Positions 1,302 through 48,510 are shown, counted from the stretch's first letter. The stretch is 64,000 bases of DNA from Azolla caroliniana (GCA_043228905.1 JBHGNT010000036.1:217520-281519), one strand, 5' to 3'. A program made the numbers and translations. Notes: generated from the sequence alone by a model not told the origin.

Positions 1302-1775
1302 ACGGCTCTCTCTGTCGCTGTCGTCGTTGTCGCCGCTGTCGCCGTCACCGTCGCCGTCGTCTGCAGCCGTTGTCTGCAGCCGCTGCAACCGTCGCCGTCT
1401 GCTCTCTCTCTCTCTCTCGCTCGCTTCCTCGTCTCTCTCTGTCACCGGCTAGTGTCGTCGCCGTCGCCGTCGCCGTCGCTGCCGTTATCTGCGGCCGTCG
1501 CCGTCTGCCACCGTGCAGTCGTCCACCGTCAGCTGCCGCCGTCTGCCGTCGGCTGCCGTCGTCTACCGTCGTTTGACGACTGCCACCGTCACGGGGTGTT
1601 TTCTTCTCCGTTCTTGATGTGGTGAAGTACCTTTTTCTCGACGAGTTCGTGGGTGGGTTCTTTTGGTGTGCTCGTCCCGTGCTACAAAATGCCGATGTGA
1701 TTGCGACACACACACAAACTCGGCTAAGTCTCGAACCCATTTATTTTACCTTCTTTTTTTCTTATTGACACCACA

Positions 1776-2588: not shown

Positions 2589-2624
2589 CGACGTGTGGCC
2601 CATGTGACAGAAAATGCACTTAGG

Positions 2625-5600: not shown

Positions 5601-6326
5601 ATCACCCCACTAGAGCCACTCCCATCTAAAATGTCGTACTATAAGAAACACTTCATGCACTTCTCTGAGTTAGGTTTTATCACACGGCCAAAATATCTAG
5701 ATGTATTCTTACCACATGCACTAAGGGTTGCCATTGGACAACTTAGAATATCGTCTCACCAACTTGAGATTGAAAATGGCCGTACTAGTGGAGTCCCTAG
5801 GGAGGAAAGGATATGTAGGTTATGTCACATAGAGATAGAGGATGAGTACCACTTTACTTGCAAGTGTCCAACCTATGCCGAGATAAGGGCAAAATACCAA
5901 GACATACTTGGTCCGTCTCCCACCCTCCCCAAACTATTAGATACTCTAGATATAAAGAAATTAGGCAAATACATTCTAGAGCTAAAACAACACAGAGAGA
6001 ATAAATTACAAAATGTTGACAATAATGTTGCTAATGATCACGAACATGTAACAAATGCAGTTTTTCAGGAACCTGAGGAGACAACGAATGCCGACACACT
6101 TGCACCACTCGGCCTTTCCATTGATGAGGCAGAAAACCAGAGAAGAACCAGACGTCCTTGGGTGCCGGGTTTCCAAACAACTCAACGTGATGTGGACGCA
6201 ATATTGAAAATAAGGGAACGTGAGCTACACCGCCTAGAAGCCATGGCTAGGGCACTCTCTACATTGGAACCCACATCAAGACCCTTTGACCCCCCACTTC
6301 TTTTCGAGAGGCTTGGGTGGAAATAA
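2625..6326 (+). CDS. LINE ORF2: AP endonuclease, reverse transcriptase, CCHC zinc finger
   Basis: Uninterrupted frame (open from 2595, first ATG at 2625). APE motifs WNCNG, LVET, GDFNAR, VDY, DH. RT motifs QAGFR, FVDFRKAFD, GVKQGCPLSP, LLYADD, YLG. Zinc finger CRLC..EDEYHFTCKC. Confidence 0.95.
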   Translation: MTLWNCNGALWAHPGRLEEILKVSDILFLVETHQSPNRGLPRVEGFRWESAFRQTSRRHTTRGSGGVAILFRRELHNRIEIMKIDPEARFMWVKVSTSKDHAIFFAICYFPPEGSRYNISGLTRLVDEGMPHGPSPYEPLLDDIIRYSSQGEVFLVGDFNARTQSRQCTVFQMNRNLEMVNVDPLDIGTTRRSKDQGADATSFGHHLLELGSRHQMVIYNGLAKWPGSEELTCFPHGGGESTVDYLIGRPTATHLINSFRVAPCPIGADHSFLYFELKCDISKVTKSSQPCHHTTIHFTHELSDIYSQHVQAHLPSIDPSLPLESLSTKLTHILHSAAASSFPYTKHSNQGRSGSMPQNKWYDEDCRDLHRQLTVSQLNGSITSTQARKEMRKMTRRKRRAWEASQYWELYHMLMSSDCATAWKRLREPRPQTPIEDPETWHTYTERLYQIPNQPPFPMPSTPRPTTGTLFTTSRVMKVIKKLQHRKSMDHTGLRAEHIIYARECLAPLLTLIFNRALAEGFPPQWTMNTVTPIHKGGDPMDPNTYRTIMIGHTLAKLYGAVMEAELSDYMETLNLRAPEQAGFRRAFSTIDHIFTLRCLIDQTRARKKRLYCCFVDFRKAFDTVPRDRLSDRLKSLRIPDDMVWAIYALYEQVSGCVRCPGGLSNRFTSTIGVKQGCPLSPTLFGIYIDEITDFIAREGGTGVVLGDTQVRILLYADDIVLLSESEHDLQRHLNALDDFCVQRGLVVNLGKTKVLIFHTSAQVRAKCHLTISHSPVEVVGSYVYLGVTFSARSGKFSMTQAAKDRLTRGHASLSLLERQCHQAHFQEPRTKGWLFDSLVTPSLMYASAVWAPGLPSFMWTQLERPLVMMLSRQLRSKSTVPHDIIRAEFTLPPMLVEALFQLVVFIDRIHSQPHDRISHQAFKASRSLYESGYTSSWYGMMVTWLLANGLDINNLPPLRYNHTSDNTLISHENRNKVIRQEIWQIYTWCKWITPLEPLPSKMSYYKKHFMHFSELGFITRPKYLDVFLPHALRVAIGQLRISSHQLEIENGRTSGVPREERICRLCHIEIEDEYHFTCKCPTYAEIRAKYQDILGPSPTLPKLLDTLDIKKLGKYILELKQHRENKLQNVDNNVANDHEHVTNAVFQEPEETTNADTLAPLGLSIDEAENQRRTRRPWVPGFQTTQRDVDAILKIRERELHRLEAMARALSTLEPTSRPFDPPLLFERLGWK

Positions 6327-11284: not shown

Positions 11285-14200
11285 TGTTGAGAGACAAGCT
11301 CAACATTTGTGCGTAATACGATGCATAACCAGTGCGTAGACTGGGTGCATAAAACCGGTACGCAGACCGGTGCGTAGAAAGGCCGTATTGGTGCGTAGAC
11401 CGAAATGCCGTTAGAAAGATATTCCTCGTAAGGAATACTTTTGGGAGTAAGTGTCGAGGCTCATTTATGAGCAGTCAAGTACTGTCAGTACTTGTGTCAA
11501 CCCATTGTCAGGGCTTGTATAAAAGTGCTCACTGAGCACATCCTATGTACAGATTGAAGATTATTTTTGAATTTAACTTCTCGTGTTACTCTCTCTCTCT
11601 GTCTCTCCCGCGTATACTGAGTAAGCTCAAGCTCTCCATTAAACCTGAGTTTTCTTCCTTCTATTCGGTCTTCATACTTGCTTCTGCACGTTACTTTTTA
11701 CATGGTATCAGAGCGTGAGGGTTGAGAACCTCTCTGCAGCCGACACAGCTTGACGAAGAAGAACAAGAAGAACGATGGATAGAGGCATGGCGAGCTCGCT
11801 TCCAACATAGAAGCTCAACAGAACCAACTACGCGTCTTGGTCCTACAAGATGCACCAATACTTGCTCGGGCACAGCTATTGGAGTTATGTTGAAGGAGCT
11901 AATGACGCGGCACCCGAATCGACACACAGAGACTTCTTGTCGTGGGAGCAATCGGCAAGCAGGGTATTATACTACTTCGCGTCGTGTGTGGGCGAACAAC
12001 TATTGAGCTATGTTCGGGATGCAAAGACGCCGAAGGGTGCGTGGGAAAATGTGAAGAAGATTTTCGCCGCGAGCACCACAGCCAGGAAGCTTCAGCTCCG
12101 ACAGGAGTTGAGCAACCTACGACAACGCGACTTGTCGGTGGCAGACTATACCTCGAAGATCAAGGATATCTGCGACTCCCTCGCCTCCATAGAGGTGAAC
12201 ATCGAGGAGAGCGAGATGGTCCAAATCTGTCTCGGAGGTTTGGCGTCGAAGTTTGGAGCATTCCGAACGGCTGTGTGTACCCGGGAGAATATGCCGTCCT
12301 TTTTCAACTTACAGTCAATGCTCCTGGTAGAGGAGAACCACGCGGGTGCGTCTACAAGCACACACACCGACAACATAATGCTGTACACGGAGGGAGATAG
12401 GCCCCGTGGACGTGGAGGACGAGGCGAGTCGGCGCGTAATGGAGGCGGCCGACGAGATCAAGGAAGAAGGCACCGAAGTGATGCCGACAGCAACTCCGGA
12501 CCCTCCGAAAACAGGGGGAGTCGAAGCGATCAGAGCCGGCAAGGGAAGGCCATCACGGAATGCTGGTACTGTGGCAAGAAAGGCCACAGGGAGAGCGAGT
12601 GCTGGAAGAAGTGCGCCGAGTCGGAGAGGTCTGGTTCCGGACATACCGACAAAGGAAATCGGCAGCGATCGCACTACGCCGAAGGATCCGGAAAAGCCGG
12701 AGAAGGGTCAGTCTTCGTGACGAGACACGAAGCAAACTCAATGAAGCAGTCTGCCTCGCAATCAGACGAGGTGTGGTATGTCGACTCCGACGCGTCAAAC
12801 CATGTGACGTGGCACAAGGAGTGGTTCTCATACCTTGAGAAACCGACGCAACCAGGAGTAGTCGCAACTGGAGACGACACTCCGCATCTGATTGCGAATG
12901 TCGGTGAAGTTCCCTTGAGCCATGTCGGGCAGAAAGGGAAACTTATGAACGTGTTACACGTCCGGATCATCACGAAGAATCTGGTGTCGGTCGGGTAGAT
13001 CGTCGACCAGGGGATGCAGGTTCGGTTTACGCATCTTGGGTGCTTCATTGAGGAAGAAGGCCGTATTATTGCGCAAGGGCACAAAGATGGGAGGATGTTT
13101 ATCCTCGACTCTACTGATGGTGGCACCGCAATGTTTGCGAAGGGAAAAAAAGTCGAGTCAGACATCGACTTATGGCACAAACGGATAGGCCACGTCAACT
13201 ACCAATGGCTTCAAGACCTGCAATCGAAACAAGTGGTGTTTGGATTGCCCAAATTTAGTGGCCGGAAGGCACAAATTTGTGAAGCCTGCCAACTCGGGAA
13301 GCAACACCGACTTCCTTTCCCCAACGAGCGAAACCGGAGCCGGAACAAGCTCGACCTTATACACTTCGATGTATGGGGGCCGGCACAAAACGTTAGTCTT
13401 GGCGGGAGCCGATATTTCGTCTCCTTCATCGACGACCACACGCGGCACACGTGGATCTACCTCATTGAGAGGAAGAGCGAAGTCTTTGACTGTTTCCGGG
13501 ACCTCAAAGGGTTCGTGGAAACGGAAACGGGACGAAAGATCAAGTGCCTGCGGTCGGATAGCGGGAAAGAGTACTTTTCTGGTCAATTCAACGGTTATCT
13601 ACAACAAATGGGAATTCGGCGCGAATTCAGTTGTAGATACACGCCGGAGCAGAACGGCGTAGCCGAGAGGAAGAATCGGTCAGTTGTGGAAGCGGCACGG
13701 GCAATGCTGGAGGAGAAGAGCATGCCCAAGTTCTACTGGGCCGAGGCGGTAAGGACCGCGGTATACATCCAGAACCAGATCGGAGACAAAGTGTCGGCGC
13801 ACGAGCTATATTTCGGAACGAAGCCGAACTTGCGACACTTGAGGGTGTTCGGTAGCATTGCGTATGTGCATGTACCGAAGGAGAAAAGGAGGAAGCTGGA
13901 CGCAAAGGCCGAGAAATGCATCTTGGTCGGTTACTCGGACGAGCAGAAGGGTTATAAGTGCTATAAGCCTCGCACCAAACAAGCGCGTGTTAGCCATGAC
14001 GTTGTGTTTGACGAGTCCGCGTCCTGGTACCAGCCCCCGACTCCGAACCCCGACTCCAATCCGAGTTCTGACGATGAGGTCAGCGAGGCTGAGATGCCTT
14101 CGGATGAGCCCGAAATCGAGACCCGCGAAGAGCCGGCGAGTAGTGGAGACTCGGTCGTGCATTCCCCGCGCAGGAAGCCGAGGAGACGGCTTACGCGCAA

Positions 14201-16905
14201 AGAGAAAGGGAAGAAGAAGGTGTCGGATTCCGGCACGGATAGGGACGAGTCAGACCGACGCGAGTCCGACTCCGAGGGAACCGGTGATGGGACTTTAAAG
14301 GTGAAGTCCGCGTCGACCGAGAAGGCCTCGACATCGGCTGATGTGAGATTACGCCGATCTACCCACCAGAAGAATCCTGTTTTGCGGTTCGGATACAACG
14401 AGTACATGGCGCATCACTATGCGTACATGACCCGTATAGCGGAAGTGTGTGAGCCGGAGAGCTACGTAGAAGCGGCGAAGGACGCGAATTGGTGCACCAC
14501 GATGGAGGAAGAGATGCACGCATTGGCGGAAAACGAGACCTGGGATCTGGTTGACACACCGAAGGGTGTGAAGCCGATCGGATGTAGGTGGGTGTACAAG
14601 GTCAAGTACAACACCGACGGCTCGGTCAACCGATACAAGGCCCGGTTGGTGGCAAAAGGTTACGCGCAGAAACACGGCATTGACTACGATGAGACGTTTG
14701 CGCCGGTCGCGAAAATGACGACCGTCCGTGTTTTGCTCGCAGTAGCTGTGGTGAAGGGGTGGCACCTACATCAGATGGATGTAAAGAATGCGTTCCTGCA
14801 AGGTGACCTTGAGGAACAGGTGTACATGGTACAACCCCCCGGATTTCACTCTAGAACGAACTCCTCGGCAGTATGCCGACTGAAGAAGTCCCTTTACAGA
14901 CTGAAGCAAGCCCCGCATGCTTGGAACATGAAGATCACGCAACAACTGCGTCGGATGGGCTTCGTCACGTCAAAATCAGACTCTTCCCTGTTCATCCGGA
15001 AAGGTCGACTCAGACCGGTTAGTAGTCTACTATATGTTGATGACTTGGTCATCACGGGCGCCGACCTAGGTGAAATCGACCGCGTGAAGCTCCAGCTTGC
15101 GGCATCGTTCGACATGAAGGATCTGGGGGACCTTCATTACTTCCTCGGGATCGAAGTGATCCGCACCCCCGAAGGCATACTAATCAACCAATGTCATTAC
15201 GCGCTGAATATGCTCTTCAAATTCGGGATGGCAGACTGTAAGTCCGTCTCCACTCCTCTGGATAGGACTGTCAAGCTTCGCCCCAATTCCGGCAAGGTTT
15301 GCGACCTGACAAGGTTCCGACAAGTTGTCGGAAGCCTTATCTACTTGACAATCACCTGACCCGATCTCAGTTATCCGGTCGGGGTGATCAGTCAATTCAT
15401 GGCGCGACCTACCGAGGAGCACCTTCAATGTGCGCAACGCGTACTACGGTACGTCAGCGGCACTAAGGACCAGGGACTGCTATATCGGACCGATATAGCC
15501 TCGTAGTTGGTCGGCTACACCGATGCTGACTAGGCCGGCTGTGTCGCCGATCGCCGATCCACGTCCGGACATGCGTTCTCTCTTGGGAGTGCCGCGATAG
15601 CGTGGAGTAGCAAGAAGCAGCCGACAGTTGCACTGTCGAGCATCAAAGTCGAGTACAAAGGAGCGGCTGTCGCAACATGCGAAGCCATATGGTTGAACCG
15701 GCTACTTAAGGATCTGCAGGTGGAGGTGTCCGATCCAACGATGATCTACTACGACAACCTTAGTAGCATCCAACTCGCGAAGAACCCCGTCTTCCACGCA
15801 CGGACCAAGCACATTGAGGTGCACTACCATTTTGTCCGTCAGCGTGTCCTTTCTGGTGAAGTCGAACTTGAATATGTTCCGACAGATCGGCAGACGACCG
15901 ACATCTTCACCAAGCCTCTTGGTCTGGACAAGTTGCGGCAATTTTCGGGTGCGCTTGGGTTGTGTCACTTCGACGTGCCAAACTTGAGGGGGAGAAACGT
16001 CCTAGATGACCACGAAAGGGAGCAGGAAAGGAGCGGAAAAGACCTCGGATCGGCTGAAGAAGCCGAGAGCGGATCCGCGGAAAAGTCCGGAAGCGGACAC
16101 AAGGGGAGTAACCGAAAGAAAGAGCCAAAGCCAACCAGGCATGGGGGAGATGACGCCGTCAAGGGCAAGAAGACCGGAGACGAGTTGGAGACAACCAACT
16201 CGGACGAGAGCGAAAACCGATCGAAGGTAGCCGAGTCAGTGCGGATGTTTGATTCAGATACACTAAATAAACTGAGGGCCGAGCGGAAAAGAAGGCGGCA
16301 GGAGAAGCGCCAACACCGCGACAGCAAGGGACCTGTGAAGGGCCGTGGGAGCAGACAAGCAGACCAAAAGGGTCGAAGCGCGCGGAGTCGAATAGGCCGA
16401 GGAGCGCGAGTGAGGCGTGGAGCTAGGAGAAGCCGGAGCATAGGTCCGACAGAGCAGGCGGAACCTCAAGTTGAGCTTGAGGGGGAGTGTTGAGAGACAA
16501 GCTCAACATTTGTGCGTAATACGATGCGTAACCAGTGCGTAGACTGGGTGCATAAAACCGGTACGCAGACCGGTGCGTAGAAAGGCCGTATTGGTGCGTA
16601 GACCGAAATGCCGTTAGAAAGATATTCCTCGTAAGGAATACTTTTGGGAGTAAGTGTCGAGGCTCATTTATGAGCACTTAAGTACTGTCAGTACTTGTGT
16701 CAGCCCACTGTCAGGGCTTGTATAAAAGTGCTCACTGAGCACATCCTATGTACAGATTGAAGATTATTTTTGAATTTAACTTCTCGTGTTACTCTCTCTC
16801 TCTGTCTCTCCCGCGTATACTGAGTAAGCTCAAGCTCTCCATTAAACCTGAGTTTTCTTCCTTCTGTTCGGTCTTCATACTTGCTTCCGCACGTTACTTT
16901 TTACA
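11285..16905 (+). mobile_element. Complete Ty1/Copia LTR retrotransposon nested in the LTR of an older Copia
   Basis: 418-bp TG..CA LTRs at 11285-11702 and 16488-16905 (about 7 mismatches by eye). TSD GGTCG at 11280-11284 and 16906-16910. PBS TGGTATCAGAGC at 11703-11714. PPT at 16476-16487. Confidence 0.97.
11775..16493 (+). pseudogene. Copia gag-pol polyprotein with in-frame nonsense codons
   Basis: One frame throughout: gag, zinc knuckle CWYCGKKGHRESEC, protease WYVDSDAS, integrase HKRIGH..CEAC plus DDE, RT LLYVDDL, RNase H. Stops near 11808, 12996, 15357 and 15500-15535. Confidence 0.92.
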
Positions 16906-32130: not shown

Positions 32131-35100
32131 AGGGTATCAAAAGAATGGCAAGTTGTCAAAGAATAACTTTTTTTTTTTACGAGGGTTATATAATGCATGG
32201 TTAGGATTTGTAATTACCATAGTTTAATGATAATCTTTCTTAATCAATCGATTCTCATATTTCACCTTCAGCTAGAGTGCTCACACATCCCTAATCACAA
32301 TTCTTCACTTCATTTTCTCTAAGTTCATCAAATTTCTCGTTTTAAGCAAGAGTTCTTTCTTAGTCCTTCAAAAAAGCATCAGGTCCAAGACTAATAAAAT
32401 GATAGTTTTGTTTTTTCCAAAAAATATAAAATGGTAGTTAGTTATCTGAGCATCTGACTAAGAAATAAAAATGTAGAGAGATAAGTTTGAGAAAGAAACA
32501 ATACATTTTTATACCCAAAAGGAATTGCAGTTTGAAATCTTAATACTTCCTTTTGAGGATTATATATCAAATGGATAATCACAGAAGAAACATGGAGCAA
32601 AGTGTCCTTTCAAGAGCAGACAACCATTGACTTCTTAAAAAATGAGCCTTTTGTTCCTGTTTACTTGCATTCATCGCTTGCTTGTACTCAACAGTAATAA
32701 TAGTACCTGACAATACACACCATCTAGGTTTTCGTAAGTTTAACCCTAACTGGTTAAAACAGAGAAAAACTCTAAAAATAACCAAGTTTTTCTTTATTCC
32801 CCAATGCCTCCAAGTATTCTTTTTAATAAATGCGGGTATCTTTCTCCAAATGTTGGTTCAAAATGTCCAAGTGTCTCATATGCTGATATACACGGAAGAG
32901 GGATACAACATGAAATTTGATGTGCACATTGAGCAGAAAATCATTACTAAGGGGAAAAGACCAAATTGTTAGAAAGAATGACTGAATGTTGTGTGACAAT
33001 GTTATGGCCTAGCATGTTAGAGGAACAACTAACAAACCAGCATGGTATATATGAATATATAAGGTTAGGAGAAGAGAAAATCTCTCTTTAGAGCAAAGGT
33101 CCTTTCCAAATTTATCAGGCCACAAAAACTAAAATGTCGTGCTATTGCTCTGGAATAGGAAATTGGAATAGCAATCATTATCCATCTCATTGTCTCATGA
33201 ACTCTCACCCATGTTGGTGTCTTTGTAACTGGAGCTATGCAAGGATTCATCAATATGTTTACTCCCCCAGATTCCCTGTTGTGTGGTTAGAGTTTCAACC
33301 TCCAACAGTTACACGAGGATAATATCTGGAAGTTTTCTCAAACTAACAGGCCAAATTCTAATGACTATTACTCATACGGCATCACAAAATTCTCTTAATG
33401 CTGGAATTAAAAATGTACACGATCATTATGTGGTCACGATTTACCCATCTTTCTCAGATGGAGTGACAATAACAATATCTAGAGTTAAAACAAGCATCCC
33501 CATGACTGATTGTGTGGTCCTCATGCTACCTAGTGATGTTTTTAAAAACGAGATCAATCAAGGTATGGCTATATGAAGGCTCATGTTACTGACGAATGTT
33601 TACTACATAATTAGCTTTCAATATATTGCCATAGAATTTTGGGTATTCAGGATATGAAATAATATAAGTGGGAAGTTGGTTTTGGCTCATTAGTGAGAGG
33701 CTCACTGAGTCCTACTATAGCTGAGTTTTTAGGTCTCCCCTATAAATGAATTTCATGATCTCCCTAATTACAACATTGTTTCCCCAAGTTAACACCATTG
33801 AGGCTTTTTAAGCGTTGATGTTTTTAAAAATCATCTTTCTCAAACTCACAATTGCATTTATCTCCTTTTTGAGCTAAATCAACAAATGCAATGAAAATAA
33901 ATTGAGGTTAGGTTAACACATACAAGAGGTAACCATCATGACATGATCGTCATGACTTTCATAACTATAATAGTTTTATCGCCTCATCCCTCACTTCAAC
34001 TACAATTGTTAACATTGATATATGTAACTATAATCATCAGAATTTAACATCTGATATCAATACATTGATCCATATGTCGATTTCAAAAGATTTGGCTACA
34101 AAACGTATATACTATTGTGGCACTATATTCTAAAGCAATTTTCATGTCTGAACGTAGATTTCCTTGCCTACTAGACGCTCATGATTCATGCATTTGTAAT
34201 TTAGTAGAACCTTCCAATATTTCAAGAATGAATGTTGAAAGTCGGTTGGAGCACCAAACAAAAACAAATGAAAGTTACACAAACCGCTTTAATGCGCGAG
34301 GAACAGAATCATTTGAGAGCTTTGGTTTCTTGGCCATGGAGATTTCTTGACTCTGAGCTTCAAGTATCGGCCTTTTAGCTGAGATGATATTATCTTGTTT
34401 ACATTTCTGTCTCCTACCAGGCTTATTTCGCCCTTTTAACTTATTCTTTAAGACAATAGACTTTCCAGCTAGTATTGCAGCAACCCTATTTGGCTCTAAA
34501 GCTTGTCGGCTCTTCATCTGATGATGTTCAGTAGGATCACGGCGAACAACTCCTATTTGTTTCGGATCGAGTACAATTGATTCAGGCTGCAATTTAGCAA
34601 GAAGAGAATGAACCTCAGCTTCTCTCCTCTGCTTAATCGTCTCAAATGGATTTGCAACGTAAGTGTCAAAGTTAGCCTCCCCTGACCCTGGCACAAGACT
34701 AACTTTGACACTTACGTTGCTAACTTATCTTCATCAAATATCACTCGTCGACTAAATATAAATCTTTTGGATTTTGGGTCATATAATCGATAACCCTTAT
34801 AGCCATGAGGTTCGCCATACCCAACAAATATTGTGCGAACTGCGTGATTATCTAATTTTGATCGAGTTTCTAAGGGTACGAGTGCATATGATGGACATCC
34901 AAAGATTCTTAGATTTTCATAATTTGGATTTTTTCCAAACCACAAGGAAAATGGAGTTGTCCTAATTGATCGACTATATGTTCTATTGAATATATAACAA
35001 GCGGTTGAAACGGCCTCTTCCCAATATGTTCGGGGAAGGTTTGCAATGGCGAGCATGCTACGAGTGGCGTCCATATACAACCGGTTTCGCCGTTCAGCCC

Positions 35101-35179
35101 TTGAATTGTGTTGGGGTGTATATGGGATGGTAAACCGTTGTTGAATCCCATGGTTTTGGCAATAAGTTTGGAAGTTTTG

Positions 35180-36532
35180 GGACTTGACTATTCTGAGACA
35201 TTTTCACCCGTCCTCCGTATGGCATCTTTTCGGCTCCTAATGGCTCTAGCCACCATTCTTGATCTCGAAGTACATCATTTGGATGTACAAACGGCATTTC
35301 TACATGGTGATTTACCTGAGGAAATCTACATGTCCCAACCTCCTGGGTTTGAGTCACAATCTCAACCAAACTATGTGTGTCGATTACATCGATCACTTTA
35401 TGGACTCAAACAATCTCCTAGGTTATGGTTTCAAAAATTTAACAATTTTATGCTCTCACATGGCTATTCTAGATTGTTATCAGAACCAAATATATACATT
35501 AGACATAATCATTCATCTAATCGGTTGTTAGTGGTAGCATTATATGTTGATGACATTCCTATAGTCGGAACACCATCTGAAATTACTCAAGCAAAGCTAG
35601 AGCTTTCCAAAGCATTTTCAATAACAGATTTAGGTCCCCTATCTTATTTCCTAGGCATGCAAGTTACGCGTAATCGTAGTATGGGCACCTTGATCATTCA
35701 TCAAAATAAATTCATTAATGAAATTTTGAAATCCTTCGGAATGCTAAACATTAAACCTTGCACTACTCCCTTATCATTAACATGTAACTTAAGCATATCT
35801 GATAGTCCAACCACAAAAAGAGATATTAATTTTATGCAACAATTTCCTTTTAAACAATTAATAGGAAAACTTCGATATTTAGTCACAGGGACTCGTCCTG
35901 ACCTTTGTTTTGCAATTAACTATCTTTCACGCTTTATGCATAACCCTGGTCTTATGCATTGGAAATCACTTCAACGAGTTATGCGATATTTAAAACACAC
36001 ATCTAACTATGGATTAACATATAAACGATCCCAATCCGAAAGACCAATCAAATCACTTGTTGGTTGGTCTGATTCGGATTGGGGGGGGGACATTGATTCT
36101 CGTAGATCTACTGCTGGTTTTTCTTTTATAATGGCAGGAGCAGCAGTGACGTGGCAATCGAAAAAACAAGAATCTGTGACACTCTCATCTGCTGAAGCTG
36201 AGTTCGTAGCAGTGGCATTGGCTGCTAAAGAAGGATTATGGTTGCAAACAGTGATAAAAGAACTCCAACTATGTGGACCACTCCAATTGAAAATCTTCTG
36301 CGACAATATATCATGCATCTACTTAACGAAGAATCCAAAGCACTCAGAGAAAACAAAACATGTGGATTTAAAATATCACTTTATACGAGAGTTAGCCGAA
36401 GAAAACAAGCTTACATTAGAGTTTACATCAACAAATCATATGTGGGCTGATTTTCTAACAAAGGCTCTCCCTCCGGACAAATTTGAAACTTGTTGTGAAA
36501 ATTTAGGATTACAACGGTTCACAACTAATTAG
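35180..36532 (+). CDS. Copia RT/RNase H, 3' part of pol (partial)
   Basis: Open frame GLDYSETFSPV..HLDVQTAFLHG..LYVDDI..GWSDSDWGG..CDNISCI..KHVDLKYHFIRE..ADFLTKAL. Confidence 0.9.
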   Translation, partial: GLDYSETFSPVLRMASFRLLMALATILDLEVHHLDVQTAFLHGDLPEEIYMSQPPGFESQSQPNYVCRLHRSLYGLKQSPRLWFQKFNNFMLSHGYSRLLSEPNIYIRHNHSSNRLLVVALYVDDIPIVGTPSEITQAKLELSKAFSITDLGPLSYFLGMQVTRNRSMGTLIIHQNKFINEILKSFGMLNIKPCTTPLSLTCNLSISDSPTTKRDINFMQQFPFKQLIGKLRYLVTGTRPDLCFAINYLSRFMHNPGLMHWKSLQRVMRYLKHTSNYGLTYKRSQSERPIKSLVGWSDSDWGGDIDSRRSTAGFSFIMAGAAVTWQSKKQESVTLSSAEAEFVAVALAAKEGLWLQTVIKELQLCGPLQLKIFCDNISCIYLTKNPKHSEKTKHVDLKYHFIRELAEENKLTLEFTSTNHMWADFLTKALPPDKFETCCENLGLQRFTTN

Positions 36533-36544
36533 TTTATGGGGGGG

Positions 36545-36785
36545 TGTTGTAATAAACTAATTAGTGTAAATAAGTAAATAAGAAAGTAAATACAAAACGT
36601 AACCTTATGATATGAAAAGGTGCACCCCAAAAATAGGGTGCACCTATAACCACCACATTCTCTCTCTGTGGTCGGTTGGTTGGTTGTAGAGAGAGAGACA
36701 CAAACACACATTATCATAAAAACATTCTTTCTCCCTCTCTTTCTCTCTCTCCCTTTCTCCCTCTCTTTCTATTTCTCGTTTACCA
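36545..36785 (+). repeat. Single 241-bp LTR flanked by PPT upstream and PBS downstream
   Basis: G tract, then TGTTG at 36545 and CA at 36785. PBS TGGTATCAGAGC at 36788-36799. Internal inverted repeat aggtgcaccc/gggtgcacct at 36618-36645. Confidence 0.9.
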
Positions 36786-36879
36786 TATGGTATCAGAGCG
36801 GTGAAGGAGTCCAACCCCACCAAGATTTGTGTCGCGGTGTTAATAACGAACGTGCGAATTAAAGAAACGACTTTCGACC

Positions 36880-39800
36880 ATGTCAAACGGTGGAGTGATA
36901 GCAAATGTGACGGCAAATGCCGCCCAGGTATCGTCTCGCACTTATCATATTGAAAAATTGAATGATAAAAATTATCAACCATGGCGTATGACCATGGAAA
37001 TTATATTAGAACAACATGACTTGTTAAAAATCGTCGATGGAACCGACGTGTGCCCCGACCCCACAAATGCACTTGGTGTGCAAACATGGAAGCGGCGTGA
37101 TTTAAACGCTCGCTTAGAACTTCTCCTTCATATGGAGGACACACTTAAGCAAAGTGTGAGAACCTTGACTACCTCCAAACAAATATGGGATAGATTAGAG
37201 GCTGATTACCTCCATACGGACGTTACGTCCCAAGTTGCAAATTTAAAAACATTAATAAATATGAATATGAATGAAAATGATGATGTTGATACATTCGTTA
37301 AAAATTGGAGACTTCGACTTGATGATGTAATCCTTTCAGGACTTAGTTTGCCAAGTTCCGTTCAATCTGCCCTCTTGTTAGCCGCCCTACCCCCATCATG
37401 GCAACCATTTATAAGTACAAAATCCACATCCGCCAACATTAGTGTCCCAACATTAGTTGCATCAATCTCACAAGAAAACATACTTCGTAGGGCAATAAAT
37501 CAACCCTCCTCATCTCACACCGCACTTTATATCAAACATCCAAATTACAATAAAAAACCTTACAATAAACCTAAATCAACATACCAACCTAATAACTCCA
37601 AATTTTATTCACGAACCTCTAAATTTAACGATTCAAGGAATCATAACAAATCTAGGTTCCTTAGATCCTTTTGTAAAAATTGTCAAAGGAGCGGACATGA
37701 AACGAAAGATTGTTATAGGAATTCTAACAACGGGAAAAGAACATATAAAGAAGACCAATCTTATAATGCATCTCATGATGACTACGATCCAAATAATCAC
37801 ATATGTGATAATGACCAAAATTCCGATGAAGATAATGAAGATTCTTTCATTGCCTTCATGGCCCTCACTTCATTTAACAATTCTCCCACTTCAACGTGGA
37901 TTCTTGATACAGGTGCCACATGTCATCTCACCTCAAGAGTTGAATGGCTCAAAGACTATAAGGCCTTAGAACATCCTTTCCCGGTTAGATTTGGGAACAA
38001 TGGGGTTGAATATGCCCTTGGACATGGGACTGCTCATCTTGAACTTTCTGATGGGAACTTCATTGAAATCAATGAAGTTTACTATATACCTAACATAGCC
38101 AAAAACTTGATATCTGTCAATAAACTCACGAATGATAATACATCCGTCGAGTTTTATCACAAATATTGTATCATTCGTCATAAGACACCCTCTGGACGAG
38201 GCTATGTCGTCAATTGTCCAAGACAAGGATGTCTTTACCTTCTAGGCCGCTCTGTGGTACCTGCTGAAGAAGCACACCACATAGATGATTCAAACACATC
38301 AAACTATATGACCTTATTATGGCACTATCGATTAGGTCACTTAAACCATCAAACAATGGTTCACATGGCCCGACAACATATAGCAATTGTCTTTACTCTT
38401 CCTCGTAAATCGAAATTATCCCTTTGCGAAGGGTGTATATTTGGAAAACTTTCTAACTCGCCATTTCCATCCCATCCTACAACGACCACCAAACCCCTCC
38501 AACTAGTACATACGGATATATGTGGTCCTTTGTCTACCCCATCCCTATCTGGAAATGTATATTTCCTAACATTTATCGATGACTTTACTCGGTTCACGAT
38601 GGTCACGTTTCTCAAGACAAAATGTAGTGATCAAGTCCTTGAGAAATTTAAAGCCTACCACAAACTTGTAACAAATCAACAAGATTTACCCCTTAAAGTA
38701 CTACAATCAGACAATGGTGGAGAATTCAAGTCCCAAAACTTCCAAACTTATTGCCAAAACCATGGGATTCAACAACGGTTTACCATCCCATATACACCCC
38801 AACACAATTCAAGGGCTGAACGGCGAAACCGGTTGTATATGGACGCCACTCGTAGCATGCTCGCCATTGCAAACCTTCCCCGAACATATTGGGAAGAGGC
38901 CGTTTCAACCGCTTGTTATATATTCAATAGAACATATAGTCGATCAATTAGGACAACTCCATTTTCCTTGTGGTTTGGAAAAAATCCAAATTATGAAAAT
39001 CTAAGAATCTTTGGATGTCCATCATATGCACTCGTACCCTTAGAAACTCGATCAAAATTAGATAATCACGCAGTTCGCACAATATTTGTTGGGTATGGCG
39101 AACCTCATGGCTATAAGGGTTATCGATTATATGACCCAAAATCCAAAAGATTTATATTTAGTCGACGAGTGATATTTGATGAAGATAAGCTAATATCTAA
39201 TCCTCACCCACATCATGGCCATGAAAAGATACAAGATGAGACTACCATGTCTAACATTGAATCTAATAAAGAAATAATATCATCACCTACTAATTCTTGG
39301 CGGGCTCCACAAATGTCCTCGGAAATTCAACAAGTCACACTTGACCATATGCCAATTAACCCTCCTCCACTAATGCATTCATCTCTAGAGGTTCGCCTAG
39401 AAGTCCCAGTTTCAACCAATGACTCCAACTTATTGCCCCTAATAACCAAACAATCACAACAAACTGATGTACATACTCCAATTTTAAACACTAACTCTAC
39501 GCAAACTAAACAAAGGCTTAATAAACAATTTAGCACTCATAAGGAAAAGCCTTTAGATAGAACACAATTAACTCACATTGATTATTCAGGTTCCCATCCT
39601 ATTCAAAATCTCTTGATCCCACTACGAAGATCCTCACGCCTTAATGGTAAGGGGAAAACCAATGGTCACAATGATGCAAAAGTAATTAAAATAGGATGTA
39701 GAAATACCTCATATCCCACTAATAGTCAACATGTAGAAGATAAAAATTGTTGTGACAATGCGAAATCACCTAGTTCACTTAGCCCTACATCGACTCCAAA

Positions 39801-40811
39801 GAAAGTTCGTACTATTCAAGATCTTTATGATCACACACAAAAAATTGATGCCCTTGTTGCGGACCATCGATTTGAACCTGAGTTTGCTTTTTCGGCTCTT
39901 GGTTCCCCGACAACCACATCAGACGTCTCTGATGATCCCTTAACTATCAATGAGGCATTGCAAAGTCCAGATCGTGTAGAATGGCAAGCCGCCATGGCAA
40001 AAGAACTTGAATCTCTTGAGGCCAATAAAACATGGACTCTAGTACCACTCCCAATGGGACGCTCACCTATTTCATGCAAATGGGTGTTGAAGAAAAAACT
40101 AAACCCTGATGGTACTGTTGCACGTTACAAAGCTCTACTTGTAGCTCGTGGTTTTTCTCAAGTTGAAGGACTTGACTATTCTGAGACTTTTTCACCCGTC
40201 CTCTGTATGGCATCTTTTCGGCTCCTAATGGCTCTAGCCACCATTCTTGATCTCGAAGTACATCATTTGGATGTACAAACGGCATTTCTACATGGTGATT
40301 TACCTGAGGAAATCTACATGTCCCAACCTCCTGGGTTTGAGTCACAATCTCAACCAAACTATGTGTGTCGATTACATCGATCACTTTATGGACTCAAACA
40401 ATCTCCTAGGTTATGGTTTCAAAAATTTAACAATTTTATGCTCTCACATGGCTATTCTAGATTGTTATCAGAACCAAATATATACATTAGACATAATCAT
40501 TCATCTAATCGGTTGTTAGTGGTAGCATTATATGTTGATGACATTCCTATAGTCGGAACACCATCTGAAATTACTCAAGCAAAGCTAGAGCTTTCCAAAG
40601 CATTTTCAATAACAGATTTAGGTCCCCTATCTTATTTCCTAGGCATGCAAGTTACGCGTAATCGTAGTATGGGCACCTTGATCATTCATCAAAATAAATT
40701 CATTAATGAAATTTTGAAATCCTTCGGAATGCTAAACATTAAACCTTGCACTACTCCCTTATCATTAACATGTAACTTAAGCATATCTGATAGTCCAACC
40801 ACAAAAAGAGA
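36880..40811 (+). CDS. Copia gag-PR-INT-RT polyprotein, truncated late in RT
   Basis: Uninterrupted: IEKLNDKNY, CKNCQRSGHETKDC, WILDTGAT, WHYRLGH..CEGC, HTDICGP/SDNGGEF/AERRNR, LYVDDI. After 40811 the frame runs into antisense UTP7. Confidence 0.93.
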
Positions 40812-43800
40812 CGATATACCACCACTATGGCCAATACCCATACTATCTTCATATGGGCAGAAGCAAAAGTCTTGTATTTGCCATCCCTTTGGTAAGTGAT
40901 GTGTCATGTAAGGCTTAGATTGCCTTGAAACAAGTGCATCTTTCCATATCTCAACATTAGAGATTTGATCAACCGCTAAAAGACCCCGTTGGCTTACATC
41001 TAGCGATTTAACTGGTGATTTTGAGAAGTAAGCATGAAGAGGAGTAAGTTTCCTCAAATCAAACACTTTAACCTTCCCATCCATACCAGCTGTGATCATC
41101 TGGTTTCCTTGTGATTCAAAAGCTACGACGGTCACAAGCCCACGATGGCAAAGTAAGGAAACAAGTGGCTTGCTCATATTAGGACTCCATATAGTTACAG
41201 TTCCATTGCTATGTCCAAGACCAATAACTGCATTATAGGGATTCATTCGCAGCACATCGCATCGTCCTAACCCGGACTTGTGCTGGGCCACACTAGTACC
41301 AGTACTAGTATCTTGATACCTAAGCGTACCGAATTTGTCGACTGAAACAAGCAAGAAATGATGTGGCAGAAATTCTAGCTCCAAAGGATAAGTGTGATCC
41401 TGCAGAATTAGTTAACAGTGTTATTATCAAGCATCAATAGAACCAGCAAAGGAATGGCTGCTGATACAGTTCAAAAGAAGTTATATACTTTCAAGCAATG
41501 AATCTCTGTTCCTTTCTTGTCATATATGTAAACATATCTGCAAAAAAGACAAGGATGAGAAGAAGATTCGGTGGCTGTGCTATTTACTTAGGCTTGGTGC
41601 ACAAAGTTTAGGAAAACTAACTTCTTCTGAGCAGCTGCATAAAACAACTCATTATGCAGGAATTATACATCCCTTGTCGTTTCGGCCACCTGTTTTGCAC
41701 ATTAACCAAAGTCAATTATAATTTCATCATCAAACTAGAAATTTATGCTGATTGCCAACACACATACATAAACTCTCTCTCTCTCTCTCTCTCTCATTAA
41801 CTGTAGTGAAAAAAGAATTGACAATGCTACTCTTTTTAAACATTGACATTCAGAAATTGGATATGAACATGGTGTTCCTTGCATCTAGTAAAAATCCATG
41901 CACAATAATTAACATCTACTATGTGTTCACTTCTTCCTCTGTTTCCTTTCCATATCTAGACACAAGCATGCTGAAAGATGCAAACTAGAAATATGCTATA
42001 CACTATTGGTCCCCCAGAAAGGGATTGGTGAGTTATTAAAATATACTATATGTATACTAAGTATTAAAAATGAAAAAGCTTCCATTTTGTTTTTGTTCCA
42101 ATTTCTCAGCCTGAATTTGAGGATTCAAGATAGAGCTTAATAGAAACCAAAATAGATGTAGATTTACCACGCATAGTAAAACCCTATAGTTTGTTATTAG
42201 TGATTAAGGGTAATCGTTACCTGCAATTCTGATACAAGTTGGGATTCCTACCAATTCATGATTGCGAGGTGACTTTTCCTTCCTCCAATTACTAGATAGC
42301 GTCCATTACGAGTGAAATCAATTGCATAAGGTCCCAGAATTGTATCATCATTATAAGTTCTCAATAAACAGAAAATATCCTACAGAGACATTATGGGGAT
42401 ATCAAAAACTAGTAACATAAATTGAAATCAAGGGATCATGCTCATGGTTATTTATGAATTTTCCATGCCTTCAATTTTCAAGATCACTAGAGATAACCTT
42501 GAAGTTGACTATCGAAAGCCTTTCGGGCACTCGCCAATTCAACATTGGGAAGAATGGCTTCTTGGGAAAAATTCTTTGTTTGTTCAAGTCCTTCAGCTTA
42601 ACCACTGCATCAGAAACAACCACTAGATAAAAAATCTGCATAGAAGGTGTGCTTGCAATCTCAAATTTATCAAATACAATGTGTATAAACATTTCAGAAA
42701 TTGGTACGTACACGGCTTCATTAAACTAGCATGCGTACATAGGATGATTATTGAAGAGAGAAAAAGGCACAAACCTGCTCAAATTTCACAGCAGTACATG
42801 CAAACTTCCCTATTATCTCTTCTCTCTACCGAAGCTACCCTCTAAGCTTCTTATCAGTTAGGTCCTGTTACAGATGAAGGATCAAAGATGTGGTACATGA
42901 AGGTATTTCTAGAGAGCGGAGGATGAGGGATAAATTAAAACAAAAAACCAGCAAAAAAATTGACTATTACCTTCAATGGAACCCTTCCACCTCGAGCATA
43001 TTTGATTTCTTCAGGAGTGAGCTCTGGCAATGACTCTGAATCCTCCATTGCTGCTCCCAAAATTCCACCCTTGAAATTTCTGTGTCTAAAGAAATATTAA
43101 ATTAATATTTCAACAAGCCCTAAATTTACTGCAATTAAAAAGTTCGCAAATGCCCTTCATTTCTCTCTGCCCTTAACCTATTTTCAATTAAGTAAAAACT
43201 ACCTTTATTTCCCTAAATGGCCCTAAATTTTCATTAATTCTACGAAGCCACCTAGAATAATTACTTGTGCTATGTGAGAAATTATATGGTCAATTTTCTC
43301 TTTTCCTCTCTTTCGACAATTGACCAGGGGCATTTATGGAAATAATGAACATCTTGGCAGTTATTTCAAAGGTTTTCCTTTTTGTCCATTAGCTTCTTGA
43401 TGCCTAATATCAATGTTCAATTAAAGAACCAATTCCAAATTTCAAGTCTAACATTCCCTGAAACTTTGAAATTTTCACTTGGAATGTAGAAAACAAGACA
43501 TGCTTCTCTTTTTTTCCTTTTGAAATACACACATCCAATATGCAGAGAGATTGTCTCTGTAAGATTACTCAACACTAATAAGCTGACATGTTTTTTCCTT
43601 GCAACATTATAAGACACAATCGAGAAATCAGAGTGGTCAATCACTTTCAATCCTCATCTATGCAAGGACAAAGAATTTACTCTGCACCTCTTAATCCTCA
43701 TGGAAGTTCAGAAGTGCTCTCATAAATATTATGAATCACGCTGAGAAACTATGCAAAACCTCCTTTTTTATTAACAACTACAATTTTTATATTAGCTCAA

Positions 43801-45610: not shown

Positions 45611-48280
45611 TCATGTGTGTGCCTTGGAAGTGTTTGGGGAGCTGCCAATAAGATCTTGTGAAATGTTGATTGATGCTCCCCTTTTTGCACCAATTGCTAG
45701 CTTACGCCCTATGGATCCACGGTCTTCTTCATTGGTTGGTTTCAGTGCACCTAGGTGATACACCAACGCCTGACCTATTTCTTCAATGAACTCCATACAT
45801 GCCAAAATTGTTGCACGGTCGAGGGATCGTAACCCTTGCCTAAGACATTGAATAGCACCCTCAACCGTTTGTATTTTCGACTCCCATTCCTCCATTTGTG
45901 ATGTTATAGGGTTTGTCTCCTCGACTGGTTCTACCTCTGTCTCCACTTCCATCTCTGTGAAATGGTCATTGCACATATAGGTTGCATGATCTATAAAAGG
46001 CAACGACCCACATAGATGTGGCATGTGCCTCTCTATAATCATCCTGATGCCGAGTATATGCTTACATTTACTCGTAGGGTCTTGGCAATCACAATATGAA
46101 CATTGGAGCAATACATTATACCATACATTCGGTTTTGTCAAGCTCAATATTTTTAACCAATATCGAGGCTCGTCCACAATATGCATTGTCACATCATTAG
46201 TTTCATACCTCTCTAGTAGCCTTTCGGCCTCTTTAAGTCTTGTTGTTTGATCCCCACAATTTGCACGTGGTGCAAATCTACCACTCTCACATATTTCTTG
46301 TCGTTGCTTGTACCATTCAATAACAGTACCCCCGATGCAAGTGCCAGTTTGACTGTCCTCGATTAAAACATGCACAAGATCGGTAATTGATCGGTTTATC
46401 CTCCCTCTTAAGGTAGTATATTTGATAAACTGCCAATGTCTCTCCACGAGATTGGTAGTGTCAACATGTCCATAGTTGAACATTCTACCAAATTTGGGCC
46501 ACAGTTTCCTCCACACACATGTCAGGCCACACCATCCTCCTTCTATATATTGCCAAACACCTGGCTTGTTTGCATATTCTACCTTTAACTCCTCACATTG
46601 GGCATTGAATGTGGATTTCGTAATGCATTGCATGAGCTGGCACATTCGATTATAAAGATGGTTTCTCTCAGTTGCACTTACCTTTGGCAACAAGTTGTCC
46701 AACCATGCTTTTTTTGCGTGGAAGTGACACAACAAAAGCCGACAATGTGTTTGCGACCTTTGCCCATTTGTAACTATCCAAGATAATCAGTCTGTTGCAA
46801 CCACATTACTTATGGCATTATATGATGTCCAACTTTTATCGATGACTATGGCATTTGGCCTCACATTGGGCATCCGTGCAAATATGACTCTCAAGCAAGT
46901 TTCTAAAGCTACTTGCTCATGGTTAGACCCCTTATCAGAATTACATATCATGTACCATAATGGGATACCAACTCCCATGGCATTTGGGGCCACAACTGCA
47001 TATAATGGCAAGCCAAATTGGTTTGTTTTAAACGTGGAGTCGATTGCCCAAGAGTTGTTTATTGACAATCGCTCACACATCTCTAACATCCATTCATCTT
47101 GGAGCACCAAGATGAATGGTTGCCTTGCGGGAGATCCATATTCACCAGGCAAGTAGGGTTGGACATGAGCCACCTTCCCAAGATCTCGGAGGGCATAGGC
47201 ATCTTGCATCATCAAAGACCAATCAACCCCTGACATGGCACTCCCAATTTTTAACTTGTTGGCCATGTTATTAACCTCCTTTGGTATCATAAAGAACCTA
47301 TAACTCACAAGGTCTAATGGACTAGCCTTGGACTTATGATATGCTTCCTTACACATGCTCATCCGTGCCACATGAAACCCTAAACCAACATCAAAAAGGT
47401 AATCTCTACAACAACTTATAACATTTGGGGCCACTGGCAAATAGTACGCATCTGGTCTACTTCTTGGTACATGACCCGTATGAGGTCCATATATTGAAAC
47501 GGTCACTGTCCCATGGTCAACCCCGCCATTCATTCGAGCGTTCACATGAAAACTACACCCACATCAAGATGAATGCTTTCTACGTCGAGTGCATGGATAT
47601 TGCTTGTTGGCCACACCGCATCGGTGACAATTATACCTAGTTACATGTGCACCCCTTGTGATCCCTGTATGGAAGCGTGTGTGATACCTCAATTGAACAT
47701 CTATGAGCATATCATCAACCCTATGTGCCTCTATCTTGATCACTTCTATGGGTCTAGACTTTTTATATTTCACGACACTTGTCCCCTCCATGTCAGATGG
47801 AGTTAACCTCAACACAACTTGACAACCACATTGGTCAATCACTGCTTTCACATACGCACTAGGGATCCCATGGTCACGAAGGTCATTGGACCAAAGTCTC
47901 TTTAACTTTGACAGAGTACTTGTCAAAGAACGGTGCGATGCGCCGCAATGTGACACCAATACTATCTCCCTCCATTTCTCTACGTGCGTAATCTGAAGAT
48001 GAGGCGATGCCTTAAGGTGTATTGCATTCTCATTTCTAAGCGTGAGACAACTCTTCATGCGCCTCCATGCATGTAAATTAAGAGGTGCACCCCTTGTGAG
48101 TGTGCTTAATATTTCAAATGTTACCTTAACTTGACCCAATAAATCTTTAAGCATTAAATCGTACATGAAGGGATCAACCTCCTCCGCCCCTTCTTCGGAT
48201 GAAGCCGACTCATAGTCTTCGGATGTAGACGAATCCTAGTCTTCGTCGATGGTTGCGGAGTATGGTGATGCATAAACCAT
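45611..48280 (-). mobile_element. Mutator-like (MULE) DDE transposase with SWIM zinc finger, inactivated
   Basis: One 890-codon frame broken by three in-frame stops (near 48237, 47564, 46787). Motifs IDSTFKTNQFGLPL, IVIDKS, LCHFH, TTNLVERHW and SWIM CDCQDPTSKCKH. Confidence 0.88.
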
Positions 48281-48424: not shown

Positions 48425-48510
48425 TTTAGGGTTTAGGGTTTAGGGATTAGGGTTTAGGGTCGGGGTTTAGGGTTTAGGGTTTAGGGTTTAGGGTTTAGGG
48501 TTTAGGGTTA
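48425..48510 (+). repeat. Short interstitial telomeric tract, about 12 TTTAGGG units
   Basis: Same orientation as the terminal array, with two variant units (ATTAGGG, TCGGGG). Confidence 0.95.

What the first reader, a model, noticed from the sequence alone, without database searches (positions are those of the whole stretch)
34699..40811. Inside-out retrotransposon: a 1.13-mer of a 4,988-bp 1-LTR circle integrated without integrase hallmarks
Seen: the element reads RT-RH-PPT-LTR-PBS-gag-PR-INT-RT, with a single LTR in the middle and both ends inside pol. 644 bp are repeated at an offset of exactly 4,988 bp (35180-35823 = 40168-40811, about 2 mismatches by eye). The UTP7 exon is continuous across the insert (GGISS | LVPG, about 2 bp lost) with no TSD, so this looks like one event rather than erosion of two elements. 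Known: integrase yields LTR-bounded copies with a 5-bp TSD, and 1-LTR circles are common by-products usually regarded as dead ends. Inference: a break was repaired by copying more than one turn around an extrachromosomal circle, or from a shared-LTR tandem template. That would be an alternative route of LTR element spread.
Basis: partly seen in the sequence, partly recalled or inferred. Interest (0 to 1): 0.85.

Follow-up and report, generated by a model that had tools for sequence, protein, structure and literature searches.

The report
Inside-out retrotransposon patched into chromosome break
In a plant (likely a fern), slightly more than one full turn of a jumping gene's DNA, starting and ending mid-gene, sits inside a dead copy of a housekeeping gene without the marks of normal jumping, most likely because DNA repair copied it in to patch a break, possibly from a circular by-product usually regarded as a dead end.

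Summary
The inside-out order is confirmed. Positions 35180-40811 hold 1.13 units (5,632 bp; unit 4,988 bp) of a Ty1/copia element with one central LTR and 642/644 identical RT overlaps. Contigs of other samples carry the empty UTP7 site: 2 bp lost, no target-site duplication. The right end matches the target at 10 of 12 bases. The UTP7 copy carries four stops and a frameshift upstream. The best reading is one double-strand-break repair with template switching and no integrase (about 0.75). Because switching is visible in the insert, a circle is not required. A 1-LTR circle (about 0.35-0.4), an LTR-to-LTR switch on linear cDNA or a normal copy, and a shared-LTR tandem all give this order. No genome was available to look for the donor, and none of four runs bridged the left junctions, so misassembly is unlikely but not excluded. 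One event does not show a route of spread. The scan's notes returned no earlier case of this structure.

The parts
34275..34698 (-). UTP7 (WDR46/BING4) last exon, 3' part, to the stop codon
   Evidence: 98.6% to P0001 aa 201-340; BING4CT profile 36-79
34654..34675 (+). host stretch that served as template of the filler
   Evidence: 22/22 inverted match to 34699-34720
34699..34723 (.). 25-bp filler: 22-bp inverted copy of the left host flank plus 3 bp (a second short flank copy, 34719-34726, or one substitution in the INT piece)
   Evidence: longest match 22 versus at most 10 for 4,948 control starts
34724..35187 (-). inverted copy of the integrase 3' half (source 38726-39189)
   Evidence: 464/464 identical; SH3_retrovirus hit
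35180..35187 (.). 8-bp microhomology shared by the inverted INT piece and the start of the RT piece (template-switch junction)
   Evidence: 620 of 24.9 million position pairs in the unit have such a match
35180..35823 (+). RT overlap, first copy
   Evidence: 642/644 to 40168-40811
35180..36532 (+). RT 3' part and RNase H to the stop codon, no internal stop
36538..36544 (+). G run of the polypurine tract, abutting the LTR
36545..36787 (+). single LTR, 241 bp (TG..CA) or 243 bp (TG..TA)
   Evidence: related LTRs L006 and L010 share the end through the final TA before unrelated flank
36788..36799 (+). primer-binding site (initiator-Met type; label recalled)
36880..40811 (+). gag-PR-INT-RT reading frame without a stop, cut inside RT by the host junction
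   Evidence: Pfam gag, Pol_BBD, gag_pre-integrs, rve, SH3, RVT_2; motifs
38726..39189 (+). integrase segment matching the inverted piece
40168..40811 (+). RT overlap, second copy
40800..40811 (.). right junction: 3 bp shared exactly with the host, 10 of 12 bases like the intact target site
40809..41399 (-). UTP7 last exon, 5' part
   Evidence: 96% to P0001; BING4CT profile 1-34
41477..43048 (-). UTP7 exons 1-6; four in-frame stops (exon 2 twice, exons 4 and 5) and a frameshifting deletion at the start of exon 3: pseudogene

Best explanation
A 6.1-kb three-piece insert of one Ty1/copia family (22-bp inverted flank copy, 464-bp inverted integrase piece, 1.13 permuted units with one central LTR) replaces 2 bp of a UTP7 pseudogene exon without a target-site duplication, and most likely arose in one double-strand-break repair by microhomology-primed copying with template switches rather than by integrase. 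Inferred steps: (1) A break formed in the exon. (2) The left 3' end folded back and copied 22 nt of its own strand. (3) One end paired with element DNA through short homology (10 of 12 bases on the right, 0-3 on the left). (4) Synthesis ran 5.6 kb through the element, passed from one side of the LTR to the other and re-read 644 bp of RT. (5) It changed strand once at an 8-bp match to copy 464 bp of integrase. (6) The ends were joined by end joining of the polymerase-theta or polymerase-delta/NHEJ type. The direction of synthesis cannot be read from the product. Passing across the LTR needs a template on which PPT-LTR-PBS is continuous or can be bridged: a 1-LTR circle is the single most likely (about 0.35-0.4 overall) but is not shown.
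For: Shown in the sequence: exact inverted 464-bp piece with 8-bp overlap and 22-bp inverted flank copy. No 5- or 6-bp direct repeat at the borders; the two 4-mers found overlap insert bases. Empty site bridged by contigs in 3 of 4 runs (X1, X2, X6) and read as a loose end in X1, X2 and X7, giving a 2-bp loss. The right end is one of only 2 of 4,988 sense positions (0 of 4,988 antisense) with this much likeness to the target (pattern chosen after seeing it). The two RT copies share letters that differ from most or all family contigs of organism A (35602/40590, 35359/40347), pointing to one donor lineage. Precedent: 5-34 bp foldback inversions and two same-locus pieces in inverted orientation with 2-11 bp microhomology at yeast breaks (10.1101/2024.03.07.583931, passages); flank-templated fillers as a polymerase-theta mark in Arabidopsis (PMC10923293, passages).
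Against: None of 4 runs (X1, X2, X5, X7) has a contig bridging 34699-34723 or 35180-35187, so the junctions rest on the window alone. Both differences between the RT copies lie in the first 37 of 644 bp (chance about 0.003, post hoc), with the family letter in the first copy at both sites. This hints at a second template and is not what two laps of one circle predict. The yeast inverted pieces are 50-150 bp, far shorter than here. No donor could be looked for. Enzyme dependence is not testable from sequence.
Confidence: 0.75

Rival explanations
1. Donor variant A: the template was an extrachromosomal 4,988-bp 1-LTR circle, made by reverse transcription or by LTR-LTR pop-out, and copied for more than one turn.
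For: The offset equals one LTR plus one internal region. Both laps share donor-specific letters. 1-LTR circles are documented for plant copia elements (PMC10462705 and PMC9324142, passages). It needs no extra switch at the LTR.
Against: The two clustered differences between the laps. The same order follows from variants B and C. No eccDNA data. TE circles are described as generally considered dead ends (PMC10462705).
Confidence: 0.37
2. Donor variant B: the template was a linear two-LTR molecule (free cDNA, whose end forces the polymerase off, or a normal chromosomal copy), and the growing strand jumped from one LTR to the other over 240 bp of homology. No circle existed.
For: The insert shows a switch on only 8 bp, so a switch on 240 bp is easy to accept. 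The family is multi-copy (element bins roughly ten or more times deeper than host bins, a rough figure). A related normal 3' LTR-host junction exists (L004). A second template would explain the clustered differences.
Against: It needs one more switch than a circle. Nothing in the LTR marks a crossover that I could test without the family's copies.
Confidence: 0.24
3. Donor variant C: the template was a chromosomal shared-LTR tandem, copied from inside the first RT to inside the second.
For: Such tandems are common in plants (PMC11899658, passages) and are the main product of integrase-independent Tf1 insertion (PMC11042837, passages). A related metagenome contig, L002 (87% identity), also reads RH-PPT-LTR-PBS-gag-INT. 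Two internal regions could differ by 2 bases.
Against: L002 is a low-coverage short-read contig in which two LTRs may simply have been collapsed. No tandem of this family is seen. The differences cluster instead of spreading along the 644 bp.
Confidence: 0.2
4. The structure is an assembly or library artefact (mis-join between family copies, or an amplification chimera).
For: No run bridges the two left junctions. Every sample with cover at the site shows it empty. Inverted joints with microhomology also arise in amplified libraries (recalled).
Against: The host resumes within 2 bp. The filler copies the local flank. The right end sits at a rare likeness to the target. The two RT copies differ. 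A mis-join between repeats would not produce these together.
Confidence: 0.1
5. An ordinary integrase insertion expanded to a tandem in place and later lost both outer LTRs and the TSD.
For: Copia elements insert in exons (PMC10462705). In-place tandems form by unequal LTR recombination (PMC11899658).
Against: It needs two deletions of kilobases that remove only 2 host bases in total, plus an inversion and a filler, in an insert with 2 differences in 1,108 duplicated sites.
Confidence: 0.04

Closest known systems
[quoted passage not shown]
   Same: Tiny target deletion, short inverted flank copy, two pieces of one donor in inverted orientation joined by longer microhomology (8 bp here; 2-11 there), short microhomology to the host.
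   Different: Natural allele rather than an induced break; pieces of 464 bp and 5.6 kb rather than 50-150 bp; the long piece crosses the LTR and exceeds one element unit.
Integration of circular genomes without integrase: endogenous caulimovirids in plants (PMC10377300, passages) and Merkel cell polyomavirus (PMC7470373, passages)
   Same: Integration as filler by NHEJ or microhomology repair; more-than-unit-length, permuted and rearranged copies.
   Different: There the circle or concatemer is the known form of the donor. Here the donor is an LTR retrotransposon that has its own integrase, and a circular template is only inferred.
Tandem LTR retrotransposons with a shared LTR (PMC11899658, passages; 10.1101/452573, part 1 of 2 read)
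   Same: PPT-LTR-PBS junction with internal sequence on both sides.
   Different: Those have three LTRs, outer LTR ends and often a TSD. Here there are no outer LTRs and the host lost 2 bp.
Integrase-independent Tf1 insertion by Rad52 single-strand annealing (PMC11042837, passages)
   Same: LTR-retrotransposon DNA entering the genome without integrase.
   Different: Tf1 inserts at PBS/PPT-like sites or into existing elements. Here both junctions are inside pol and the target is a gene.
Ty1/copia superfamily (Pseudoviridae)
   Same: gag-PR-INT-RT-RH order, PBS, PPT, short LTR.
   Different: Lineage not assigned: closest proteins are unnamed at 64-66% identity and named ones are at most 48%.

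Membership tests
Integrase-made Ty1/copia insertion | gag-PR-INT-RT-RH domain set with PBS and PPT | tested here: met
   (present once per 4,988-bp unit, in permuted order)
Integrase-made Ty1/copia insertion | LTR at both ends of the insert | tested here: not met
   one LTR in the middle; ends in filler/INT and in RT
Integrase-made Ty1/copia insertion | 4-6 bp target-site duplication | tested here: not met
   no 5- or 6-mer repeat; empty site shows a 2-bp loss
Templated insertion at a repaired double-strand break | small or no loss at the target, flanks colinear with the empty site | tested here: met
Templated insertion at a repaired double-strand break | filler copied from the break flank | tested here: met
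   22/22 inverted; controls at most 10
Templated insertion at a repaired double-strand break | microhomology at junctions | tested here: met
   8 bp at the internal switch; 3 bp exact and 10/12 at the right end; 0-3 bp at the filler
Templated insertion at a repaired double-strand break | dependence on polymerase theta, or on polymerase delta plus NHEJ | not testable with these tools
   needs mutants
Re-integration of an extrachromosomal 1-LTR circle | circularly permuted order with one LTR | tested here: met
Re-integration of an extrachromosomal 1-LTR circle | repeated part identical (same molecule read twice) | tested here: inconclusive
   642/644, shared minority letters, but two clustered differences
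Re-integration of an extrachromosomal 1-LTR circle | no chromosomal tandem donor; circle present as eccDNA | not testable with these tools
   no genome held; no eccDNA data
Shared-LTR tandem retrotransposon (in place) | three LTRs, outer ends at LTR termini | tested here: not met
   self-search of the insert finds one LTR in the window
Tf1-type integrase-independent insertion | junction at PBS/PPT homology or inside an existing element | tested here: not met
   junctions lie in INT and RT; target is a UTP7 exon
Autointegration product | rearrangement junction formed by an LTR end | tested here: not met
   the inversion junction joins INT to RT with 8-bp microhomology; criterion recalled

The most novel reading that the evidence does not exclude
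This is a natural, heritable footprint of a 1-LTR retrotransposon circle re-entering a plant chromosome: a break end invaded the circle and copied 1.13 turns. The 644-bp direct repeat could later recombine and release the whole 4,988-bp unit again, so such inside-out copies would be a hidden, integrase-free store of LTR elements that LTR-pair annotation tools do not see. Read-through from the host promoter across the 464-bp inverted pair could also turn the locus into a silencing source for the family.
Probability: 0.35. Interest if true: 0.7.

Novelty: new variant of a known kind. Interest (0 to 1): 0.48.

Why it matters
Whether retrotransposon circles ever return to plant chromosomes is open: PMC10462705 (passages) calls them generally a dead end and lists re-insertion as a question. 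This locus gives a precise signature to screen long-read assemblies for: PPT-LTR-PBS in the middle, ends inside pol, overlap longer than zero, no TSD, filler. It also gives diagnostic letters that can identify the donor. Even if the donor proves to be a tandem or a linear copy, it is a clean natural record of multi-switch break repair over 6 kb in a non-seed plant. Its weight is limited: it is one event, in a pseudogene, with unverified junctions.

Tried and rejected
Whole-genome search for donors, tandems and other permuted copies: not possible, no genome held. Cluster look-up of the intact UTP7 relative P0001 could not be made. Expression: no RNA holder listed, which is no evidence either way. 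Lack of cover at 34701-34722 in four runs is not proof of absence; X5 and X7 are shallow (host depth about 4). One X5 contig (record 21, depth 3.8) lies on 40799-41052 with 0 listed differences, which would include three insert-specific letters, but only 13 bases lie on the insert side, below the tool's 31-base bridging rule, so I did not count it. Viral-contig scan with the integrase: 14 pattern matches, none confirmed. Metagenome LTR scan: 13 loci, 10 aligning to the element; the two complete solo-like LTRs (L006, L010) show no 5-bp TSD, so the family's own TSD was not measured. Lineage assignment (Ale or other) failed: no named close relative, and the paper search gave listings only. The two 4-bp repeats near the borders were rejected as a TSD because they overlap insert bases and the empty site shows a loss. 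Autointegration, in-place tandem erosion and Tf1-type annealing were rejected (see membership test). The age estimate (70-140 thousand years; 95% range 8-500; recalled plant rates) is not relied on, since the two differences may come from a second template. Nine of my ten paper searches sought a precedent; their listings and the passages I read showed no single-LTR, more-than-unit-length, pol-bounded insertion. The library lacks most subscription journals, and I read no supplements.

Full report
Setting. The window ends in a TTTAGGG array (61242-64000) behind a 178-bp satellite, so the locus lies about 20 kb from a chromosome end. The host gene's closest named relatives are from the ferns Ceratopteris richardii (80%) and Adiantum nelumboides (77%), so the host is likely a fern. 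No genome is held for the window.

Observation check. At an offset of 4,988 bp the window is identical over 35180-35823 and 40168-40811 except at 35200/40188 and 35216/40204. Pfam places RT at 35180 onward, and gag, protease, integrase and RT in a stop-free frame from 36880 to the right junction. The RNase H stop (36530-32), a G run (36538-44), an LTR starting TG at 36545 and a primer-binding site at 36788 lie between them. A self-search of the insert finds no second LTR in the window. So 35180-40811 is 5,632 bp, or 1.129 units, with one LTR in the middle. The LTR is 241 or 243 bp; two related LTRs in metagenome contigs share the end through the last TA.

The first 481 bp of the insert are not RT. 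Positions 34724-35187 are an exact inverted copy of the integrase region 38726-39189 (464/464). It overlaps the start of the RT piece by 8 bases that fit both; only 620 of 24.9 million position pairs in the unit offer such a match. Positions 34699-34720 are an exact inverted copy of host bases 34654-34675; 4,948 control starts taken from the element match the flanks for at most 10 bases. The three bases between them can be read as a second short copy of the same flank or as one substitution.

The empty site. BING4CT profile positions 1-34 lie on one side of the insert and 36-79 on the other. Eight related proteins have one more residue there, Ile in 7 and Leu in 1. Of 22 runs listed I laid five. 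In one search, contigs of X1, X2 and X6 (3 of 4 runs) join 34697 to 40806. In one search, loose ends in X1, X2 and X7 (3 of 4) give the intact letters: the window lacks exactly 2 host bases and duplicates none. X1's contig differs from the window at 9 of 439 aligned bases and may be the working paralogue. X2 and X7 match the window's left flank without a difference, so window-like alleles exist without the insert. No 5- or 6-bp repeat flanks the insert. The last 12 bases of the insert match the intact target at 10 positions. Only 2 of 4,988 sense positions (one is the real end) and 0 of 4,988 antisense positions meet the pattern I could count from window letters alone; the pattern was chosen after the fact.

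Result against. None of X1, X2, X5 and X7 has a contig across the filler or the inversion junction; the family contigs run on into normal element sequence at 34724 and 35187. One shallow X5 contig overlaps the right junction by 13 bases with no listed difference, too little to count. The insert is therefore either polymorphic or an artefact. I put artefact at about 0.1, because a mis-join would not return to within 2 bp of the same exon, copy the local flank and end at a rare likeness to the target.

The host gene. All seven UTP7 exons are present. Exon 2 has two in-frame stops, exons 4 and 5 one each, and exon 3 starts with a frameshifting deletion. An intact 97% relative exists (P0001). The target is a pseudogene. 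That it was dead before the insertion is inferred: X2, which has the empty site, also holds a contig identical to the window over 34212-34517, where the window differs from P0001 at two residues. This would explain why the insert was tolerated.

The donor. In 13 of the 40 difference rows shown (597 in all), every laid contig of the three organism-A runs has another letter than the window's element. About 5 such sites would be expected from mutation after insertion at the rate seen between the duplicates, so the donor was probably a somewhat diverged copy; the runs are other samples and are filtered. At two sites the two RT copies share a letter that most or all organism-A contigs lack (35602/40590, 35359/40347), so both derive from one donor lineage. 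The two differences between the copies lie within the first 37 of 644 bp (chance about 0.003, post hoc). The first copy has the family letter at both, and the second copy has Cys where the two closest relatives have Arg. This is unexplained: either two later mutations 16 bp apart, or a short patch copied from another family member next to the inversion junction.

Mechanism. Shown: three pieces, microhomologies, flank-templated filler, 2-bp loss, no TSD, no terminal LTRs. Inferred: one break repaired by microhomology-primed synthesis with template switches and finished by end joining. The yeast study 10.1101/2024.03.07.583931 (passages) reports both features at induced breaks: 5-34 bp foldback inversions, and two pieces of one locus in inverted orientation with 2-11 bp microhomology, which it says can also form in extrachromosomal DNA. 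PMC10923293 (passages) treats flank-templated fillers as a polymerase-theta mark in Arabidopsis. Crossing the LTR needs a circle, a tandem or a jump between two LTRs. One-LTR circles are real for plant copia elements and can come from cDNA or from pop-out (PMC10462705, PMC9324142, PMC12786077; passages). Shared-LTR tandems are common in plants (PMC11899658, passages). A related contig, L002, reads PPT-LTR-PBS at 87% identity but may be a short-read collapse, and L004 shows a normal 3' LTR-host junction. My split: circle 0.37, LTR jump 0.24, tandem 0.20, artefact 0.10, in-place erosion 0.04, other 0.05.

Comparison and novelty. It fails the membership test for an integrase insertion, for an in-place tandem, for Tf1-type annealing (PMC11042837, passages) and for autointegration. 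It meets the three sequence tests for a templated insertion at a break. It works like the integrase-free integration of caulimovirid and polyomavirus genomes (PMC10377300, PMC7470373; passages). A search for circle-mediated translocations in 306 fungal genomes found none, with repeats masked (PMC9694575, passages). All truncated EVD insertions in PMC10462705 kept two LTRs. I also read part 1 of 2 of 10.1101/452573 and passages of PMC11790251; neither describes this structure. Nine searches for a precedent showed no single-LTR, pol-bounded, more-than-unit insertion; the library lacks most subscription papers and I saw no supplements. The scan's own notes gave no match by sequence. By words they returned seven permuted-LTR gypsy cases with integrase-made ends and one permuted fungal block, and one diatom filler case; all are unchecked and concern different structures.

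Verdict. As arranged, the long frame has no RNase H, PPT or 3' LTR behind it, so the copy would not transpose directly. Recombination between the 644-bp repeats could in principle release the unit as a circle (inference). One event in a pseudogene does not establish a route of spread. New variant of a known kind; interest 0.48.

Noticed in passing
window 48425-48509: About 12 TTTAGGG telomere repeats, in the same orientation as the terminal array, sit directly before the 12.7-kb 178-bp satellite (48510-61242), which ends in the true telomere. This may be an older healed chromosome end onto which the satellite block was added.
   Followed up: no
window 1728-6326 +: LINE with two stop-free frames back to back (286 aa; 1,245 aa with endonuclease and RT), apparently intact.
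   Followed up: partly
window 11703-16493 +: Another copia element (PBS at 11703; gag, integrase and RT in frames separated by stops). Its RNase H frame runs on into a long charged, low-complexity tail with no Pfam match.
   Followed up: partly
window 45611-48235 -: MULE transposase remnant in one frame with internal stops, ending about 190 bp before the internal telomere repeats.
   Followed up: partly
window 34724-35187 and 38726-39189: The 464-bp perfect inverted pair, 3.5 kb apart, lies inside the UTP7 pseudogene transcription unit. Read-through RNA would be antisense to the element and could fold into a hairpin. No RNA data.
   Followed up: no
L002 1-3420: Related copia (87% identity) in a metagenome contig with the same RH-PPT-LTR-PBS-gag-INT order and a 174-bp LTR: a real tandem or circle junction, or an assembly collapse.
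   Followed up: partly
window 36545-36787; L006, L010: This subfamily's LTR appears to end in TA rather than CA, while relatives L002 and L004 end in CA.
   Followed up: partly
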